From a virus (lineage: Duplodnaviria > Heunggongvirae > Uroviricota > Caudoviricetes), in IMG/VR virus record IMGVR_UViG_2775506858_000003, positions 64,001-96,173 of that record: DNA of 32,173 bases. One strand, written 5' to 3'. This document shows positions 10,594-16,662 of the stretch, in pieces. The position numbers and the translations under genes are program-made. Below the pieces are notes generated by a model. It worked only from the letters and a program-made list of their open reading frames with translations. It was not told where the DNA came from and did no database searches. The stretch's first letter is position 1. Each line of letters starts with the position of its first letter.

Positions 10594-10661
10594 GGGAACG
10601 TAACAAATTCACCTTTCCCTGAAACCCATAATAAGACCCAATAGGAATATTGGGTTTTTTT
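10594..10661 (+). promoter_or_regulatory. Putative late promoter and hairpin leader, copy 2
   Basis: GGGAAC 10594-10599, 27 nt, CATAAT 10627-10632, 29 nt with hairpin ACCCAATA/TATTGGGT and T-run, ATG 10662. Confidence 0.7.
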
Positions 10662-12182
10662 ATGTCTCAACAATCAGTGATACTTGATAAAAATGGTGAC
10701 AATTTTCAATTAGCGACACCAGAGGAAATCTACCAGGCTTCAAATGAGGCCATGGTTGATTTCGATTCAGTCACAATCGGGCAAATGCTGGCTTCAAACC
10801 AGCAAACAATACGAAATCGTATTGAGATATATGGTGCCTATCAATACATGGCCAGTGACCCAATCATTGCAACAGCATTGAATCTGCACGTTACACAGTC
10901 ATTAGGTGCACACGAAACCACAAGTGAAGTATTTTTCATTGAATCCAAGCCAGATGCAAAGGGCAATGAAATTAAAATTATTGAGGAATTGCGCGATGAT
11001 TTGGCACCACTACTGAATAAAATGGCCTATGAAATTGCCTATTCAGGTGCGACATTTGGTGATGCTTATGCACGTATCTATTCAAAGCCAAAGACCGGTG
11101 TAGAAGAAATATACTTTGGTGACAAATTACACAGTGCAATCATTCAGCCAATGATGCGAGGTGAAAAGACCATTGGTTATGTTGTTGCTCTTGAGAATTC
11201 AAACAAACGTGTATCTATGAGCACAATGCAAATTGCACGTTTCAAAATGCCACGTATGGGCATGGTGTCTCAGCAACGAATACTCTTAAATGCTTGGAAT
11301 GACTCAATTCTAGAAGATGATTTGTCAAAACATAAGCCTTTGCCAGATACCATTGGTGGCAGCTTTCTCCAAGATGCTGAACGGCCATATTACTTGCTTC
11401 AAAATGCGCTATTTGGCCTAAATTCAAGCCGCATCATGGATGCTGTTCAAGAGTCATTAATCACTTTGAACATGGAAGGCATGAATAACACGCAGCAGAA
11501 GAAATTCGTGAATGCCATGACCAAGATGTTGACGGCTACTAAGAACAAGCTGCATGAAGCCATATCCGCCGGCAGACCCATTACTGAACGCATTCGGCAC
11601 ATTCTACCAGTGAGCAGTGAGAAACAGCTTACTCAAATTGATACCGGCCTCAGTGGTTCTGGTAACTCAAACTCTTTCAATATCGATGACGTGATGCTGT
11701 ACGCACGAATGCTTGCAGCAGCCTTGGGTCAAGACCTGTCTATGTTGGGTTTTGCTGACCAGCTATCAGGTGGCTTAGGCGATGGTGGCTTTTATCGTGT
11801 GTCAGCACAAGGAGCGCAGCGTGCTATTTGGATACGCCAAGGTTTTACTGACTTCGTAAATTATGTGATTGATATTCACATGCAGCAAAAATATGGTGGC
11901 ATTTTCAAGAATAGGCCATACGAAATCACATTTATTGGTGCCCAAACTGCCTTGGAAAAAGAGAAGCAAGATATTCAAGAGCGCCGTTCTATGTCCAGTG
12001 CAACCACATTACAGGTCATGCAACAGCTTATTGACCTTGGATGGGATGAAAAAAGCATCATCAATTTCCTTAAAAACCAAATGTCGATGGATGAAGATGA
12101 TGCACTGCTGTACGCGAAGCAATTGGCGAAGAAACAAAGCGAGCGGCCACAAGAATCAAACGAACAAGATTTCAACGAATAG
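10662..12182 (+). CDS. prt: Portal protein (P1 Prt-like)
   Basis: IATALNLHVTQSL, FGDAYARIY and LAAALGQDLSMLGFADQLSGGLGDGGF...QGAQRAIWIRQG closely follow P1 Prt motifs. Confidence 0.85.
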   Translation: MSQQSVILDKNGDNFQLATPEEIYQASNEAMVDFDSVTIGQMLASNQQTIRNRIEIYGAYQYMASDPIIATALNLHVTQSLGAHETTSEVFFIESKPDAKGNEIKIIEELRDDLAPLLNKMAYEIAYSGATFGDAYARIYSKPKTGVEEIYFGDKLHSAIIQPMMRGEKTIGYVVALENSNKRVSMSTMQIARFKMPRMGMVSQQRILLNAWNDSILEDDLSKHKPLPDTIGGSFLQDAERPYYLLQNALFGLNSSRIMDAVQESLITLNMEGMNNTQQKKFVNAMTKMLTATKNKLHEAISAGRPITERIRHILPVSSEKQLTQIDTGLSGSGNSNSFNIDDVMLYARMLAAALGQDLSMLGFADQLSGGLGDGGFYRVSAQGAQRAIWIRQGFTDFVNYVIDIHMQQKYGGIFKNRPYEITFIGAQTALEKEKQDIQERRSMSSATTLQVMQQLIDLGWDEKSIINFLKNQMSMDEDDALLYAKQLAKKQSERPQESNEQDFNE

Positions 12183-12193
12183 GATGATAAAAA

Positions 12194-13099
12194 ATGGCAA
12201 AAATGACAACCGGTGTTATCCGATACAACATTGCAGACCGAGGCCGTAAGTTTGTTGGCCAACCGCGTAACTTCAATATCCCAAAAGTGGTGGAGTTACT
12301 TAACGGTGGTGTAGTACAAGAATTGATTGGCAAAGGTGATTTATTTGGCTATCTGGGTCATGGTGTGCGCGAAGAATATGGATTATTTCCAGATGAAACT
12401 GCAATAGCCAATGTAAATGGCAAAACACAATTGACTTCAATTGACCCATGCTGCCGCACTATTTATCTAAAGGCTTTCCCTGATGGAACCATTGAACATG
12501 AAGAAGAATTCACAGATACATTCTTAGGCCAAAAGGCTTATGAGTGGCATTGTAAGAAAATCGGTGGTTTTTCTAGTGTATTTGCGCCGAATCCTGAAAA
12601 TCCAAGTATGTTTTATGGCTTTGATTACGTCCGTATGCCTAATTTTGATGGCAATCGTGGCTATGTTGCTGATGGTGCCATGTTCGACATAGACCCTGGG
12701 CGGATTACATCAAAGCAACAGGCCTTACTGATGCAAGAGCGCTTGGAAGAACGTCGTGTTGTTATGGATTCAATTTCTCAAAAACTGTTAATAGCAAATC
12801 AACAGGTATTTGCTGAACAAGAACTGAATGCGCATTTACACGGTGATTTTGACAAATTACAGGCCGCTTATGACGAAGCACAGTTTCAATTGCGCGATAT
12901 GAAGTTTCTATTGAGCCAAGAAACGCCAAAACACGAACCGATGCTTACCCTGAGTGCTGAAAATTGGCTGACAGAATCAGCAAACCAGTCGGTGATGGAT
13001 TCTATTACTTTAAGCGGTGATGAAATACATTCACTCGAGCCAACAATTGAGCCTTTTGAACAAGATTTATTGGGCAGTATTTTCAATTTCGGTAAGTGA
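12194..13099 (+). CDS. pro: Prohead protease (P1 Pro-like)
   Basis: GDLFGYLGHG, PCCRTI, EHEEEF, GGFSS and GFDYV..PNF. Directly after the portal, as in P1 prt-pro. Confidence 0.8.
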   Translation: MAKMTTGVIRYNIADRGRKFVGQPRNFNIPKVVELLNGGVVQELIGKGDLFGYLGHGVREEYGLFPDETAIANVNGKTQLTSIDPCCRTIYLKAFPDGTIEHEEEFTDTFLGQKAYEWHCKKIGGFSSVFAPNPENPSMFYGFDYVRMPNFDGNRGYVADGAMFDIDPGRITSKQQALLMQERLEERRVVMDSISQKLLIANQQVFAEQELNAHLHGDFDKLQAAYDEAQFQLRDMKFLLSQETPKHEPMLTLSAENWLTESANQSVMDSITLSGDEIHSLEPTIEPFEQDLLGSIFNFGK

Positions 13100-13106
13100 G
13101 TAAAGC

Positions 13107-16100
13107 ATGGCAAACTCAATCAGTCTATCGCATGACGATAATGGTTTTTTGGTCGGTAAGAAATTTGATAGAAGCCAATTTGATTTAAAGCTGAAAGAAA
13201 CGTTAACCAATACCAAAGCCATTTTGAAAAAACTGGATGGCCGCAGAATTGGTAACCGCATTTTGGTCTCTGGTCATATCGCAGTTGATGGTGATGTCAA
13301 ACAATCGTCACAAGTGGCACCCAAGAGAAGGGTGGTTACCAGCCCACCACCTTCAGCACAGAAAGCAAGTTCTACTGGCCATGGTGGTAATAAAAACACC
13401 ACCAAACGAATTGTGCTTGGACAAAAACCTATCGCCAAGCCCGTAATGCCCATGATTGTATCCTCGCATAAGGGAGTGACAGTTAAAGGCCGTAAAAGCC
13501 AGTCTAGCGCCTCGAATATCGGCAAGGAAGCAATGGATGCACGTGCTGCCAAGCAATTGGCTTTGCGGCAGGAGCGTGCTCAGCAAAAAATCTCACTTGA
13601 TGATGCCAAAGAGCAGCGTACACAGACTGATTTACTTGAGACCATTGCAAAGAATATCGGTAAAGGTGGCGGAAAAGATTCAGGCGGCCTGTTATCAAAA
13701 TTACTGCCATCTATTCCATTCCTATCAAAAATACCAAAAATGTTAGGTGGGGGCTTGATTGGTGGCCTATTCAAGTTTGGAAAAAAATTAATACCAGGTT
13801 TGGGCTCACCAAATAAGGTTTCACGCTTGGGAGGCTATGCTAAGAGCTTCTCTGAGAGTAAGTTCGGCAAAATGGTCGGCTTATCCAAAGGAGGCTTCTT
13901 AAGCGGCCTTATAGGGGGTAAGGGTGGCACCGGTCTCTTAGGTAAATTAGGCAAAGTTAAAGGTTTAGGGGTGCTAGGCCTTGGCCTCACTGCGCTTGAA
14001 TCTGCCAATGTTGAAAACTCTGAAATGGATAGGGGCGATAAGAACAAGCAACACTTGAAAAATGGTGTGAGTTTGGCCGGTGCTTTGACCGGTGGTGCTG
14101 CCGGTATGAAGGTAGGGGCTGTCGTTGGTTCAATAATACCAGGGGCTGGTACAGGTGTGGGTGCCATTCTTGGTGGCATTGTGGGCTCACTGGCTGGTGC
14201 TGGTGTTGCTGACTACGCTATGGATGCATTAGATGATGCCATAGACCCTAAACTAAGCAAAAAGATGTTGGGCTCTTGGGATGGGTTTGTATCGACTGCA
14301 AAGCAGGGGATGAGCACTCTCTGGAAAGAGATGCCAAAGCCGATTCAGGACGCTGGTAATTACGTCGCTGAAAAATATGAAAAGGCGCAAAAGGTCATAA
14401 CCACTGTAAAAGAAGGGGTAGCTGACAGTGTTGGTACCGTGGCCGGTGGTGTACGAAATAATGTGAACGATTCTGCTGTAGGTAAAGCTGTAAACAATGC
14501 AGTAGAAGGTGCCAAAAAGCTTGTCGGAATTGGTGGCGGTGGTCAAAGTGCTGAGAAACTGGAAGGCAAATTGATTTCCTCCGGTCTTCTTGCAAACAAT
14601 GGAACCAAGGTAAACAAGAAATTATTACGTAAAAATGTACCAGAGAGTGTCTCAGGTGGGCTTGCTCACGCTGGAACGTATGCAGCTGCAATAGATTCTA
14701 TTGATTCAGACGTTCAGAAATTTACTGCTTTCCAAGATAGTTACCATATCAATGCAAATGCTGGTTCCTACCATAATAAAGGCTTAGCATTTGATGTAAC
14801 TTACAAAAATGCTAAAGGCGGCAGTGGTATAGCAACAATAAACAATGTAAATGCCAAGCGCTTTCAGCCCAAAGCTGATGCGATTAAGGCAAGAATGAAG
14901 GCCGCTGGTCTAAAAGAAGGAACTGATTTTAAGGTAACGAATGAGTATGACCCTAAAAATAGAGTAGGACATTCTACAGGTGGTCATATTCATGTTGAAA
15001 TCCGAAATAAGGAAGCAGCGGCTAAATATGCTGCGTTTAATTCCGGCAAAAATTCAGCAGAAAAAGTTGATGGTAATATTGGTTTAATTCCACAAGATTC
15101 TCAATTACAACGTAACAACGATGCTGCTCGTCGAGGTGGCTCACCATCGTCATATGTTCCTTCTACCGTTGGCCTAATCCCACAAGATTCACAATTGCAA
15201 AAAAATAATGATGCGGCACGGAGAAGTGGGAATTCAGTGTATGTACCGTCTACTGTAAATATGGTTTCGGGAGCTTCAGCTTCTAAATCTAACAGTACAA
15301 ATTATGAATTTAGTTTTGGAGCCGATGTTGATAATTATATAAAGGAGGCTTCAAAAAAGTATGGTATCGATGAAGAAACACTTAGAGGTTTTATTAAAAT
15401 GGAGGCTGGTTGGACAGGAAAAATGTCTCCGACTGGAGCAATTGGAACGGGGCAATTTATTAAATCAACATGGAATTCATTAGCAAATCGGAAAGATGGG
15501 CAAGAAATTGGGATGACTGAAATTAATAGTTCCAATTTTAGAAAGAAAAATGACCCTAGATATAATAAAAAAGTTAATACATTAGCTACAGGTTTACTGG
15601 CTAGTGATAATGCAAAAATACTAGTAAAAGCTGGCTTACCGGTGACAGGAGAGAATTTATATATGTTACATAATATAGGTCCTGGTGTAATTCCTGCATT
15701 AAAAGGGAGCGATAATATTTCCAAATCAACAAGATTAGCAATGAAGAATAATGGTATGAAGGAAAATGAATCTCCTGTTCAATTTACCCGGCGTCAAAAA
15801 AATATTTTCCAAAGTCATTTCACAACAGCTAACAAACTTAAAAACACTCAAGAAAGAAAGCCAGTAGCTAAACAAAACTTTTCTCCTAGTAGTACCCTGT
15901 CAAAAGAAAAGCAGATTAGAGTTACTAGTGAAATTAATAAAGTGAAGCAAAATGTCAGTATTGCAAATTCACAAATACCAGAAATACCAATAACATCATT
16001 GAAAAATCGAAGTATGAAAATTTCGAGTAACAATACAATTGATAATATTAATGAAAATATTGCTCATTTACCATCTCGCCAGTTATCTCAAAAGACGATA

Positions 16101-16133
16101 GCATATGCTGCTTCCGGTGGAACGACCGGCTGA
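13107..16133 (+). CDS. Tape-measure-like protein (P1 Sit-like) with M15-type peptidase and lytic transglycosylase domains
   Basis: 1008 aa with K/G-rich and Gly-zipper regions. SYHNKGLAFD (HxxxxxxD, 14772-14795) and GGHIHVE (14985-14993). KYGID...IKMEAG...GAIGTGQF SLT motif (Glu codon 15402). Confidence 0.75.
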   Translation: MANSISLSHDDNGFLVGKKFDRSQFDLKLKETLTNTKAILKKLDGRRIGNRILVSGHIAVDGDVKQSSQVAPKRRVVTSPPPSAQKASSTGHGGNKNTTKRIVLGQKPIAKPVMPMIVSSHKGVTVKGRKSQSSASNIGKEAMDARAAKQLALRQERAQQKISLDDAKEQRTQTDLLETIAKNIGKGGGKDSGGLLSKLLPSIPFLSKIPKMLGGGLIGGLFKFGKKLIPGLGSPNKVSRLGGYAKSFSESKFGKMVGLSKGGFLSGLIGGKGGTGLLGKLGKVKGLGVLGLGLTALESANVENSEMDRGDKNKQHLKNGVSLAGALTGGAAGMKVGAVVGSIIPGAGTGVGAILGGIVGSLAGAGVADYAMDALDDAIDPKLSKKMLGSWDGFVSTAKQGMSTLWKEMPKPIQDAGNYVAEKYEKAQKVITTVKEGVADSVGTVAGGVRNNVNDSAVGKAVNNAVEGAKKLVGIGGGGQSAEKLEGKLISSGLLANNGTKVNKKLLRKNVPESVSGGLAHAGTYAAAIDSIDSDVQKFTAFQDSYHINANAGSYHNKGLAFDVTYKNAKGGSGIATINNVNAKRFQPKADAIKARMKAAGLKEGTDFKVTNEYDPKNRVGHSTGGHIHVEIRNKEAAAKYAAFNSGKNSAEKVDGNIGLIPQDSQLQRNNDAARRGGSPSSYVPSTVGLIPQDSQLQKNNDAARRSGNSVYVPSTVNMVSGASASKSNSTNYEFSFGADVDNYIKEASKKYGIDEETLRGFIKMEAGWTGKMSPTGAIGTGQFIKSTWNSLANRKDGQEIGMTEINSSNFRKKNDPRYNKKVNTLATGLLASDNAKILVKAGLPVTGENLYMLHNIGPGVIPALKGSDNISKSTRLAMKNNGMKENESPVQFTRRQKNIFQSHFTTANKLKNTQERKPVAKQNFSPSSTLSKEKQIRVTSEINKVKQNVSIANSQIPEIPITSLKNRSMKISSNNTIDNINENIAHLPSRQLSQKTIAYAASGGTTG
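15081..15257 (+). repeat. Tandem linker repeat (90 + 87 bp) between the two hydrolase domains
   Basis: GLIPQDSQLQRNNDAARRGGSPSSYVPSTV followed by GLIPQDSQLQKNNDAARRSGNSVYVPSTV. Confidence 0.9.
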
Positions 16134-16158
16134 CATAAAAAAATATTGGAGATGCAAA

Positions 16159-16662
16159 GTGCCAAAAAAAATTGCTACAGCTATATTAATATTATTAATG
16201 TCTAATACTTCTTTTGCGAGCTCTATTCAGCTTAATCCATTAGGAGATGATAATGAATTGATGATTTCTCAAGCTATAAATATAACTGGTTCTTGTGGAG
16301 GGGCAGTTGTCAGAATTTTAGGGGTCGAAGATTATTCTGAAAATTTAAACTTTTATAAAGTTGATATTGATTCTGGCAATATTATCGTCAGAGGTAACAA
16401 CTTTGAAGTTGATGCTAAAGACCTATTAAGTGACCACAATGGGGTGTCTTGCATGGACAGTTCTAAAAGTAATGCGAAATATGTAATGATATGGAGTAAC
16501 TGTTCTGGAAGTGCGTGTGGTGATGATTTTAGCTTTTATTTTATTGACCCAAAAAACGGTAAGAATGTAACTCCTAAATCTAAAAGCAATATTTGTGATG
16601 CGAATTGTGCTTCACAATTTTTGGGGAATAATTCGCCAAAATCTATAAATCAGTTAGAGTAA
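16159..16662 (+). CDS. Exported cysteine-rich protein, candidate peptidoglycan-hydrolase inhibitor
   Basis: GTG 16159 with upstream GGAG. Signal peptide MPKKIATAILILLMSNTSFA. Six Cys. Function is inferred from position only. Confidence 0.6.
   Translation: MPKKIATAILILLMSNTSFASSIQLNPLGDDNELMISQAINITGSCGGAVVRILGVEDYSENLNFYKVDIDSGNIIVRGNNFEVDAKDLLSDHNGVSCMDSSKSNAKYVMIWSNCSGSACGDDFSFYFIDPKNGKNVTPKSKSNICDANCASQFLGNNSPKSINQLE

What the first reader, a model, noticed from the sequence alone, without database searches (positions are those of the whole stretch)
14650..15850. Tape measure with two stacked cell-wall hydrolases joined by an anciently diverged linker duplication
An M15-type peptidase motif set (HxxxxxxD...HxH) and an SLT motif set are separated by two copies of a 29-30 aa linker. 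The copies differ at many synonymous positions (e.g. ggt tta att vs ggc cta atc; gct gct cgt vs gcg gca cgg), so this is not recent slippage. Sequence becomes visibly AT-richer around the repeat (spot counts: 17/60 GC at 15541-15600 vs 33/60 at 14101-14160, the latter Gly-rich). Inference: hydrolase modules are added or swapped by recombination at a conserved linker, like polymorphic toxin C-termini.
Basis: partly seen in the sequence, partly recalled or inferred. Interest (0 to 1): 0.7.

Follow-up and report, generated by a model that had tools for sequence, protein, structure and literature searches.

The report
Prophage tail protein with swappable wall-cutters
A 1008-residue injection (probable tape-measure) protein of a P1-like prophage carries two cell-wall-cutting enzymes joined by an old, duplicated 30-residue spacer; the second enzyme differs between related phages, which is ordinary modular phage evolution, not a new mechanism.

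Summary
Gene 13107-16133 (+) encodes a 1008-aa protein with these parts, in order:
- a glycine-zipper region;
- a divergent M15/LAS-type zinc peptidase (H556-x6-D563, H627-x-H629);
- two tandem 30-aa linker copies (nt 15081-15170 and 15171-15260);
- a phiKZ-gp144-like lytic transglycosylase (catalytic E766);
- a conserved C-terminal motif.

The linker copies share 18 of their first 20 residues, but synonymous sites are saturated (pS 0.88, pN 0.076). The duplication is therefore old and both copies are under purifying selection.

In positional orthologues, which lie after the P1-type portal (Prt) and Pro genes, the second enzyme slot varies: gp144-like SLT here, a SleB-like domain in the closest homologue, and other SLT types, VanY or nothing in more distant ones. 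Homology to the closest homologue breaks at the end of linker copy 1 and resumes about 65 residues before the C-terminus.

- The linker occurs only in these two proteins. It is not a widely conserved recombination site.
- The extreme C-terminus is conserved, so this is an internal cassette, not a variable tip.
- The GC3 drop lies at about codon 446, upstream of the peptidase, not at the repeat.

Tape measures that carry lysins, and lysin module shuffling, are already known. Interest is modest.

The parts
10650..12182 (+). Portal gene, P1 Prt homologue (510 aa)
   Evidence: phrog_1497, E 2e-152. tblastn gives 29% identity to P1 Prt and 40% to Xanthomonas phage Rb1. It is 47-89% identical to the gene upstream of the orthologues in L004, L028, L029 and L030.
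12194..13099 (+). P1 Pro-like head-processing gene (301 aa)
   Evidence: phrog_1801 and phrog_30560. tblastn to P1 pro gives E 4e-14, to L004 84% identity and to L030 47%.
13107..16133 (+). Whole gene: 1008-aa Sit-like tape-measure/injection protein (P0001)
   Evidence: Weak PHROG matches to a tape measure family (phrog_23574, E 6e-8) and a tail-associated lysin family (phrog_1047, E 2e-7). It is the only tape-measure-like ORF found in the prophage stretches examined.
13617..14261 (+). Gly/Lys-rich region ending in a glycine-zipper hydrophobic segment (aa 171-385)
   Evidence: Direct reading. Sub-threshold DUF1269 match at 332-383. Gly-zipper Pfam hits in homologue P0015. The region is shared at 27-35% identity with many long SLT-bearing proteins.
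14622..15071 (+). Divergent M15/LAS-type zinc peptidase domain (aa 506-655)
   Evidence: Invariant D544, H547, H556, D563, E613 and H627. Pfam Peptidase_M15_4 scores 16.9 bits, below the cutoff of 25, but 25 of 60 members hit it. AF2 model pLDDT 89.9. VIA-align top matches are VldE (Z 7.2), hedgehog N-domain (6.3), T5 and Ply500 L-Ala-D-Glu peptidases (4.9, 4.8) and 1lbu (4.7). ESM Atlas shape matches to VanY/M15_4 (TM 0.58) and M15_3 (TM 0.52) clusters.
15081..15170 (+). Linker copy 1 (aa 659-688); conserved 18-aa core GLIPQDSQLQRNNDAARR plus a variable tail ending YVPSTV
   Evidence: Homology to P0002 runs through this copy and stops at residue 687.
15171..15260 (+). Linker copy 2 (aa 689-718)
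   Evidence: It is about as far from the single L004 linker (41/60 nt) as copy 1 is (42/60). It is not part of the SLT module as that module occurs elsewhere.
15270..15881 (+). Lytic transglycosylase module (aa 722-925), catalytic E766 at nt 15402-15404
   Evidence: Pfam SLT scores 21.8 bits against a cutoff of 21.3 on the isolated segment. A profile of 36 modules hits phiKZ gp144 (3bkh) at E 0.004, spanning the catalytic Glu. The module is 57-72% identical to Acinetobacter tape-measure C-terminal modules.
15936..16130 (+). Conserved C-terminal tail (aa 944-1008) with terminal motif IAHLP..R.LS...IAYAASGG
   Evidence: It realigns with P0002 residues 880-944. The motif recurs at the extreme C-terminus of P0015, P0098, P0132, P0106, P0166, P0049 and the Rb1 948-aa protein.
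16105..16662 (+). Downstream 185-aa ORF with a hydrophobic N-terminal segment and several Cys residues; possibly linked to the cassette
   Evidence: sequence. It has no Pfam family and is unrelated to the LprI-family gene at the same position in L004.

Best explanation
The gene encodes the tail-tube-resident tape-measure/injection protein of a P1-related myovirus prophage. The prophage is integrated in a Neisseriaceae-type chromosome. The protein is the functional analogue of P1 Sit, but it lies after the portal (Prt) and Pro genes.

Inferred mechanism. After sheath contraction the protein is expelled into the periplasm. The glycine-zipper segment engages the membrane. The zinc peptidase (LAS/M15 fold) cuts peptide stems or cross-links, and the gp144-like transglycosylase cuts glycan strands, opening the wall locally for DNA entry. 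The conserved C-terminal motif is probably the assembly anchor to the baseplate hub, which would explain why it is kept when the enzyme in front of it is exchanged.

Shown. The slot between the peptidase and the C-terminal tail is a variable cassette among positional orthologues. The 30-aa element after the peptidase is duplicated in this lineage only. The duplication is at least as old as the split from the closest known relative. The 18-aa core of both copies is under purifying selection, so it is more than a passive spacer.

Unresolved. Its role is open: a tether, a docking helix or a processing site. It is also open whether copy 2 arose in place or by unequal crossover when the SLT cassette came in.
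For: P1-like context: sheath, PmgG, tube, BplA-like baseplate, fibre, Prt and Pro.

Tape-measure candidacy: no other tape-measure-like ORF in the prophage stretches examined, and no P1 Sit homologue in the genome. P1 Sit is the accepted tape measure, with its SLT at residues ~750-900 (PMC9024508).

Enzyme domains: for the peptidase; for the SLT.

Cassette variation among syntenic orthologues:
- SleB-like module in P0002: Foldseek 4f55, prob 0.97, TMt 0.70, far above all other rows; Hydrolase_2 lead from the Atlas.
- Canonical SLT in P0100 (108 bits) and VanY in P0102 (103 bits).
- No second module in P0200 and P0225.
- Synteny.

Breakpoints against the closest homologue.

Duplication age and selection: pS 0.88 and pN 0.076 between the copies, against pS 0.68 for the orthologous peptidase region.

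Conserved C-terminal motif.
Against: - The gene sits in the head-gene neighbourhood (after portal and Pro), not beside tube or chaperone genes as P1 sit does.
- No Pfam tape-measure family matches.
- There is no BLAST similarity to P1 Sit beyond a weak SLT alignment (E 0.095).
- Only ~505 residues precede the enzymes, which is short for a long contractile tail.
- The peptidase is below Pfam's cutoff, and the structure matches are modest (best Z 7.2; Foldseek against PDB has no hit at E <= 0.001).
- No activity, virion location or processing has been measured.
- Only two linker-bearing proteins are known, so the order of events cannot be resolved.
Confidence: 0.68

Rival explanations
1. The protein is a capsid-internal ejection protein, like T7 gp16 or the P1 Dar-type internal proteins, and not a tape measure. 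It would be packaged in the head and ejected through the tail to digest the wall.
For: The gene lies directly after the portal and Pro genes, as it does in relatives where the major capsid gene follows. The same SLT module in Stenotrophomonas phages is annotated in some records as 'internal virion protein with endolysin domain'. No Pfam tape-measure family matches.
Against: A contractile-tail phage needs a tape measure, and no other candidate was found in the prophage stretches examined or in the annotated parts of phage Rb1 that were read. There are weak PHROG tape-measure and tail-lysin matches. The same SLT module sits in PF10145 tape measures of Acinetobacter. The architecture parallels P1 Sit.
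Confidence: 0.2
2. The second linker copy is a recombination scar. An unequal crossover between two diverged relatives, each with peptidase-linker-X, joined the linker of parent A to linker-SLT of parent B. The copies were therefore already diverged when they became neighbours, and no ancient duplication in place occurred.
For: The two copies are as far from each other (44/60 nt) as each is from the L004 linker (42/60 and 41/60). Copy 2 lies exactly between the end of homology with P0002 (residue 687) and the start of the SLT module as seen elsewhere (~723). The closest relative has one copy and a different cassette.
Against: No protein with a single linker followed by this SLT module was found. 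GC3 does not change at the junction. None of the ~90 other carriers of the SLT module has the linker.
Confidence: 0.35
3. One reading: the linker is a conserved, portable junction, like the pre-toxin motifs of polymorphic toxins. Homologous recombination at it repeatedly adds or swaps hydrolase modules across phages.
For: The break with the closest homologue falls at the linker. The second slot is variable in the family. The gene downstream also differs between the two phages: an LprI lysozyme-inhibitor family gene in L004 and an unrelated exported-looking protein here.
Against: The linker core was found in only two proteins despite searches of four large collections. More distant orthologues have at most a faint resemblance, such as LLRQNDVAR in P0098. 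The SLT and SleB-like modules occur in other tape measures without it. The right-hand boundary is a conserved C-terminal tail, not a free C-terminus.
Confidence: 0.1
4. The repeat is a chance similarity or an assembly artefact.
For: None found.
Against: Internal BLASTP E-value 6e-13. The repeat is in frame, and the copies differ at 25% of bases, so they cannot come from read collapse or expansion. An independent Logan assembly of the probable source run is identical across the region.
Confidence: 0.01

Closest known systems
Bacteriophage P1 Sit (structural injection transglycosylase; tape measure)
   Same: The virus type is the same (P1-related myovirus). Both are long proteins with a charged N-terminus, a Gly-rich hydrophobic stretch and an SLT domain at about residues 750-900. 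Both are taken to supply the tail-associated muralytic activity (PMC9024508).
   Different: There is no significant sequence similarity outside a weak SLT alignment. The genome position differs: after prt-pro here, between pmgB and pmgA in P1. This protein has an extra M15-like peptidase and a different C-terminal motif.
Tape measure proteins with embedded peptidoglycan hydrolase motifs (mycobacteriophage TM4, T5 Pb2, staphylococcal phiIPLA35)
   Same: Muralytic domains inside a tape measure help entry (PMC1796659; review PMC6116005). From my own knowledge, not checked here, the phiIPLA35 tape measure has both a lysozyme-like and an M23 domain.
   Different: Those are siphoviruses with different enzyme families. 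None is reported with a duplicated, selected inter-domain element.
phiKZ gp144 / GH23 lytic transglycosylases
   Same: The SLT module's profile aligns with the gp144 catalytic domain across the catalytic Glu (E 0.004).
   Different: gp144 is a free endolysin with a peptidoglycan-binding domain. Here the domain is an internal cassette of a 1008-aa structural protein.
LAS / MEROPS clan MD zinc peptidases (M15 VanY/VanX, T5 and Ply500 L-Ala-D-Glu peptidases, VldE, hedgehog N-domain)
   Same: The SxHxxGxAxD and HxH zinc-site motifs and the fold.
   Different: The domain is below every Pfam M15 cutoff. It has a family-specific invariant D544/H547 pair and E613. Its substrate bond is unknown.
Polymorphic toxin systems (for example CdiA-CT with the VENN junction)
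   Same: A conserved delivery part, a variable enzymatic cassette, and possibly a matching downstream gene (LprI-like in the sister phage).
   Different: The junction motif is not conserved across the family. The cassette is internal, with a conserved C-terminal tail after it. No immunity function has been shown.

Membership tests
Peptidase M15 / LAS zinc peptidases (clan MD) | Zinc-ligand motifs H-x6-D and H-x-H (SxHxxGxAxD) | tested here: met
   H556, D563, H627 and H629 are present and invariant or nearly so in 60 homologues.
Peptidase M15 / LAS zinc peptidases (clan MD) | Score above the curated Pfam cutoff for an M15 family | tested here: not met
   Peptidase_M15_4 scores 16.9 bits against a cutoff of 25. 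Of 60 members, 25 match it at E <= 0.1 and none is shown above the cutoff.
Peptidase M15 / LAS zinc peptidases (clan MD) | Hedgehog/DD-peptidase fold | tested here: met
   AF2 pLDDT 89.9. LAS enzymes fill ranks 1-4, 7, 9 and 11-14 of the VIA-align list (Z 7.2-4.5). Atlas VanY/M15_4 cluster TM 0.58 and M15_3 TM 0.52. Foldseek against PDB alone was not significant.
Peptidase M15 / LAS zinc peptidases (clan MD) | Peptidoglycan peptidase activity | not testable with these tools
   Needs a zymogram or muropeptide analysis.
SLT / GH23 lytic transglycosylase | Pfam SLT at or above the gathering score | tested here: inconclusive
   21.8 bits against 21.3 on residues 715-1008 alone, but 19.0 bits on the full protein.
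SLT / GH23 lytic transglycosylase | Catalytic Glu in the first motif, and similarity to a solved GH23 enzyme | tested here: met
   E766 is invariant in 36 modules. The profile aligns to phiKZ gp144 (3bkh) at E 0.004, covering the catalytic region.
Phage tail tape measure protein | Match to a curated tape-measure family | tested here: not met
   No Pfam tape-measure family at E <= 0.01. Only weak PHROG matches confined to the Gly-rich region (phrog_23574, E 6e-8).
Phage tail tape measure protein | Position in the tail module next to tube/chaperone genes | tested here: not met
   The gene follows Prt and Pro. The same order holds in relatives.
Phage tail tape measure protein | Only long tape-measure-like protein of a contractile-tail phage | tested here: met
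   The other ORFs of 550 aa or more in the prophage are DarA-like, phrog_29900, phrog_1014, the fibre and a defence-island protein. P1 Sit has no tblastn hit in the genome.
P1 Sit family | Sequence homology to Sit over its length | tested here: not met
   Best BLASTP hits have E 0.034 and 0.095 over short stretches.
Polymorphic-toxin-like cassette system | Junction motif conserved across family members with different cassettes | tested here: not met
   The linker core occurs only in P0001 and P0002.
Polymorphic-toxin-like cassette system | Cognate immunity gene downstream that varies with the cassette | tested here: inconclusive
   The downstream genes differ: LprI family in L004 (29.6 bits, cutoff 22) and an unrelated 185-aa ORF here. 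L028 and L029 have opposite-strand genes downstream. No function was tested.

The most novel reading that the evidence does not exclude
The 18-aa core GLIPxDSxLQ[RK]xNDAARR is a functional signal, such as a processing or docking site, that marks the start of an exchangeable wall-hydrolase cassette. The gene just downstream (an LprI-type lysozyme inhibitor in the sister phage, an exported Cys-rich protein here) is a cognate inhibitor exported by lysogens. Together they would form a polymorphic virion-lysin/inhibitor pair used for superinfection exclusion.
Probability: 0.08. Interest if true: 0.6.

Novelty: new member of a known kind. Interest (0 to 1): 0.3.

Why it matters
The result gives a clean natural example of one structural slot in orthologous phage injection proteins being filled by at least five different wall-degrading modules, while the flanking peptidase and the C-terminal anchor are kept. 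That is useful for annotating P1-like prophages. In this clade the tape-measure candidate sits after prt-pro and is missed by Pfam. It is also useful for engineering virion-associated lysins. The M15-like domain family (153 representative clusters) lacks an adequate Pfam model. The duplicated linker core under purifying selection is a small, testable curiosity about how two enzymes are spaced or released. None of this changes current understanding of phage entry.

Tried and rejected
- Pfam, and phmmer against PDB, on the peptidase and on the P0002 alternative module gave nothing significant by sequence.
- Foldseek against PDB for the peptidase model had no hit at E <= 0.001 and mixed HIT proteins with LAS enzymes. 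VIA-align and the Atlas shape search were needed.
- My first home-made HMM for the alternative module was contaminated by an insignificant domain row and falsely matched the peptidase. I rebuilt it.
- The region-restricted search for the linker returned only the query. Its sensitivity is low: even P0002 fell below E 10.
- The degenerate DNA pattern gave 0, 0 and 3 hits. The 3 were out-of-frame or chance matches.
- Apparent upstream extension of SLT alignments into the linker (P0039, P0073) showed no real similarity when the alignments were read.
- The idea that the AT shift marks a recent import at the linker is rejected. The GC3 change point is at codon ~446 and is shared with L004.
- A 355-aa candidate for the baseplate hub turned out to be P1 gp25-like. 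With no hub identified, I did not run a complex prediction.
- Atlas feature search of the N-terminal half gave only leads below 0.9 (Gly-zipper, T4 tape measure at 0.81).
- Run X2 holds only two short low-depth contigs. No conclusion about habitat or strain can be drawn.
Full report
**What is there.** The finding lies inside one ORF, 13107-16133 (+), encoding 1008 aa (P0001). The window is part of a 1.44-Mb contig of a 3.7-Mb genome with about 49% GC. The window itself is 38.9% GC.

The genes around the ORF are those of a P1-related myovirus:
- sheath, PmgG-like, tube and BplA-like baseplate genes;
- a 1101-aa fibre gene;
- a P1 Prt-like portal gene (10650-12182) and a P1 Pro-like gene (12194-13099);
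- an AT-rich accessory island, then an endolysin and an integrase.

The family-level genome search shows a family of 176 species with one genus of 98 species of 1.8-2.8 Mb. Relatives of neighbouring modules are named Neisseria elongata. The host is therefore most likely a member of the Neisseriaceae; this is an inference.

**Checking the observation.**

The peptidase motifs are present: S-x-H556-x-x-G-x-A-x-D563 and H627-I-H629.

An exhaustive phmmer search of 1.84 billion representatives with residues 506-725 found 153 clusters at E <= 0.001. Nearly all of them are domains inside long proteins. In an alignment of 60 of them, D544, H547, H556, D563, E613 and H627 are invariant and H629 is nearly so.

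Sequence methods place the domain only weakly:
- Pfam Peptidase_M15_4 scores 16.9 bits against a cutoff of 25.
- 25 of 60 members touch M15_4, 8 touch M15_3, 5 touch VanY and 5 touch the hedgehog signalling domain.
- The profile search against PDB gives hedgehog, Ply500, LdcB and VanXYg at E 0.15-0.8.

Structure methods agree on the fold:
- The AlphaFold model is confident (pLDDT 89.9).
- Foldseek against PDB was not significant.
- The exhaustive VIA-align search puts LAS enzymes at ranks 1-4, 7, 9 and 11-14: VldE Z 7.2, hedgehog 6.3-5.8, T5 peptidase 4.9, LysB4 4.9, Ply500 4.8, 1lbu 4.7.
- The Atlas shape search finds VanY/M15_4 and M15_3 clusters at TM 0.58 and 0.52.

I conclude that this is a divergent LAS/M15-type zinc peptidase. 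The fold and the site are supported. Formal Pfam membership is not.

The SLT module (aa 722-925) reaches the Pfam SLT cutoff only when scanned alone: 21.8 bits against 21.3. A profile of 36 homologous modules aligns to the phiKZ gp144 lytic transglycosylase at E 0.004, and E766 is invariant.

The two linker copies are real:
- Copy 1 is nt 15081-15170 and copy 2 is nt 15171-15260.
- The spacing is 90 nt, with 75% nt identity over 61 nt.
- The internal BLASTP E-value is 6e-13.
- In the first 20 codons, 18 residues are the same while 12 codons differ synonymously.
- pS is 0.88 and pN 0.076.
- The orthologous peptidase region of the window and its closest relative has pS 0.68.

The duplication is therefore at least as old as that split, and the 18-aa core of both copies is under purifying selection.

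Third-position GC tells a different story about where the shift lies:
- The best change point is at codon ~446 (nt ~14440), with a log-likelihood gain of about 20.
- GC3 is 0.424 before codon 420, 0.273 in the peptidase part and 0.217 in the SLT part.
- The last two do not differ significantly (p = 0.15).
- The same shift is seen in the sister gene.

The composition shift therefore does not mark the linker.

**Relatives and the cassette.**

Only one protein resembles P0001 over most of its length: P0002 (944 aa, a Logan contig, L004). It is 64% identical over residues 1-687 and has a single linker. It then diverges completely and realigns only over the last ~65 residues. DNA homology behaves the same way, and both window copies align to the one L004 linker, at 77% and 76%.

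The replaced segment of P0002 is 60% identical to the C-terminal module of ~770-aa Neisseria tape measures. Its model (pLDDT 88.9) matches only SleB catalytic domains well: 4f55 at prob 0.97 and TMt 0.70, with all other rows at prob <= 0.08. The Atlas feature search points to Hydrolase_2 clusters, as a lead.

Conversely, the window's SLT module is 57-72% identical to modules in about 90 otherwise unrelated proteins. These are mostly Acinetobacter tape measures carrying PF10145, plus Stenotrophomonas phages. In all of them homology starts at about residue 723, after copy 2.

More distant relatives keep the peptidase and a terminal motif of the type IAH.P..R.VS...IA[YH].ASGG. Their genes lie directly after Prt-like genes that are 47% identical to the window's. 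In L004 and L030 a Pro-like gene lies between the two, as here, so they are positional orthologues.

Between the peptidase and the tail these relatives carry different second modules:

| Protein(s) | Second module | Evidence |
|---|---|---|
| P0015, P0098, P0132 | module with a TES...GAYQ motif; weak SLT hits for P0015 and P0098, no Pfam hit for P0132 | |
| P0100, P0166 | canonical SLT (108 bits in P0100) | |
| P0102, P0112 | VanY (103 and 89 bits) | |
| P0106 | another module, no Pfam match (its sequence looks lysozyme-like; my reading) | |
| P0200, P0225 | none | |

Some relatives with the same terminal motif have SLT but no peptidase (P0049 and others). The second slot is thus a genuine variable cassette bounded on the right by a conserved C-terminal tail.

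**Is the linker a conserved junction?** No.
- Among the 363 proteins gathered, only P0001 and P0002 have it.
- A region-restricted search of 5.8 billion clusters returned only the query. Its sensitivity is low.
- A degenerate DNA pattern for the core found nothing in IMG/VR or the GTDB representative genomes, and only three chance hits in the JGI metagenomes.
- P0098 shows at most a faint echo (LLRQNDVAR) right after its peptidase.

The element is best seen as a lineage-specific C-terminal extension of the peptidase module that was duplicated in this lineage.

**Tape measure or not.**

P1 Sit is the accepted P1 tape measure, with its SLT at residues ~750-900 (PMC9024508). P0001 has a parallel layout but no significant similarity to Sit, and it lies elsewhere in the genome.

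In favour:
- No other tape-measure-like ORF exists in the prophage stretches examined.
- In Xanthomonas phage Rb1 the syntenic 948-aa protein shares the N-terminus, the Gly-rich region and the terminal motif. No tape measure is annotated in the parts of that genome that I read.

Against: the head-gene neighbourhood and the lack of any curated tape-measure family match.

I put tape measure at about 0.7 and a capsid-internal ejection protein at about 0.2.

**Mechanism.**

Shown: the domain set, the conservation of catalytic residues, the cassette variability, and the age of and selection on the repeat.

Inferred from knowledge of virion-associated lysins (PMC6116005; PMC1796659): the protein is expelled on contraction. 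The peptidase and the transglycosylase attack the peptide and glycan parts of the wall. The C-terminal motif anchors the protein in the baseplate.

Open: the origin of copy 2, whether by duplication in place or by unequal crossover when the SLT cassette arrived.

**Novelty.** Lysin domains in tape measures, dual-lysin tail proteins and lysin module shuffling are all known. A dual SLT + M23 protein even appeared among the hits (P0083). This is a new member of a known kind, with a well-documented cassette slot and a small unexplained feature, the selected and duplicated core.

Noticed in passing
window 16105-16662; L004 5032-5394: The gene just downstream of the injection protein differs between the two closest phages. 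L004 has an LprI (lysozyme inhibitor) family protein (29.6 bits, cutoff 22) behind the SleB-like cassette. The window has an unrelated 185-aa ORF with a hydrophobic N-terminal segment and several Cys residues behind the SLT cassette. This could be a hydrolase/inhibitor pairing, or just unrelated cargo genes.
   Followed up: partly
window 16164: The Logan contig of the probable source run lacks one base here relative to the window (depth 24). This lies in the first 60 nt of the 185-aa ORF and would change its predicted start and N-terminus.
   Followed up: no
window ~14440 onward to ~22786: Third-position GC falls from about 0.42 to 0.22-0.27 at about codon 446 of the gene. It stays low through the downstream ORF and the accessory island (GC3 0.21-0.26). 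The same intragenic shift occurs in the sister gene on L004. The enzymatic half of the protein therefore has the composition of the cargo region, not of the structural genes.
   Followed up: partly
P0001 residues 506-655 and 153 representative clusters: The M15-like domain family is widespread inside long phage proteins of 150 to ~2800 aa, including EL-like and RisingSun-like jumbo phages. No Pfam M15 model reaches its cutoff on it. It is a candidate for a new family in the LAS clan.
   Followed up: partly
window 13389-13587 and 15393-15665 (run X2): Another public run holds a 273-nt contig 99% identical to the SLT module and a 231-nt contig only 93% identical to the N-terminal region. This would fit a relative that shares a near-identical cassette. 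The contigs are short and at depth 2-3, so this is only a hint.
   Followed up: no
window 1-32173 versus the rest of contig C10: The prophage (about 39% GC) is far more AT-rich than its host chromosome (about 49-50% GC). Its lysin modules are closest to those of Acinetobacter and Neisseria phages.
   Followed up: no
L020 (Xanthomonas phage Rb1) 11899-14181 and 15079-17925: In Rb1 the portal and Pro-like parts appear fused in one annotated 'capsid assembly protein'. The 948-aa gene after it, annotated hypothetical, ends in the same C-terminal motif (GIAHIATGG) but has no lysin domain detected here. It is probably the unannotated tape-measure candidate of that phage.
   Followed up: partly
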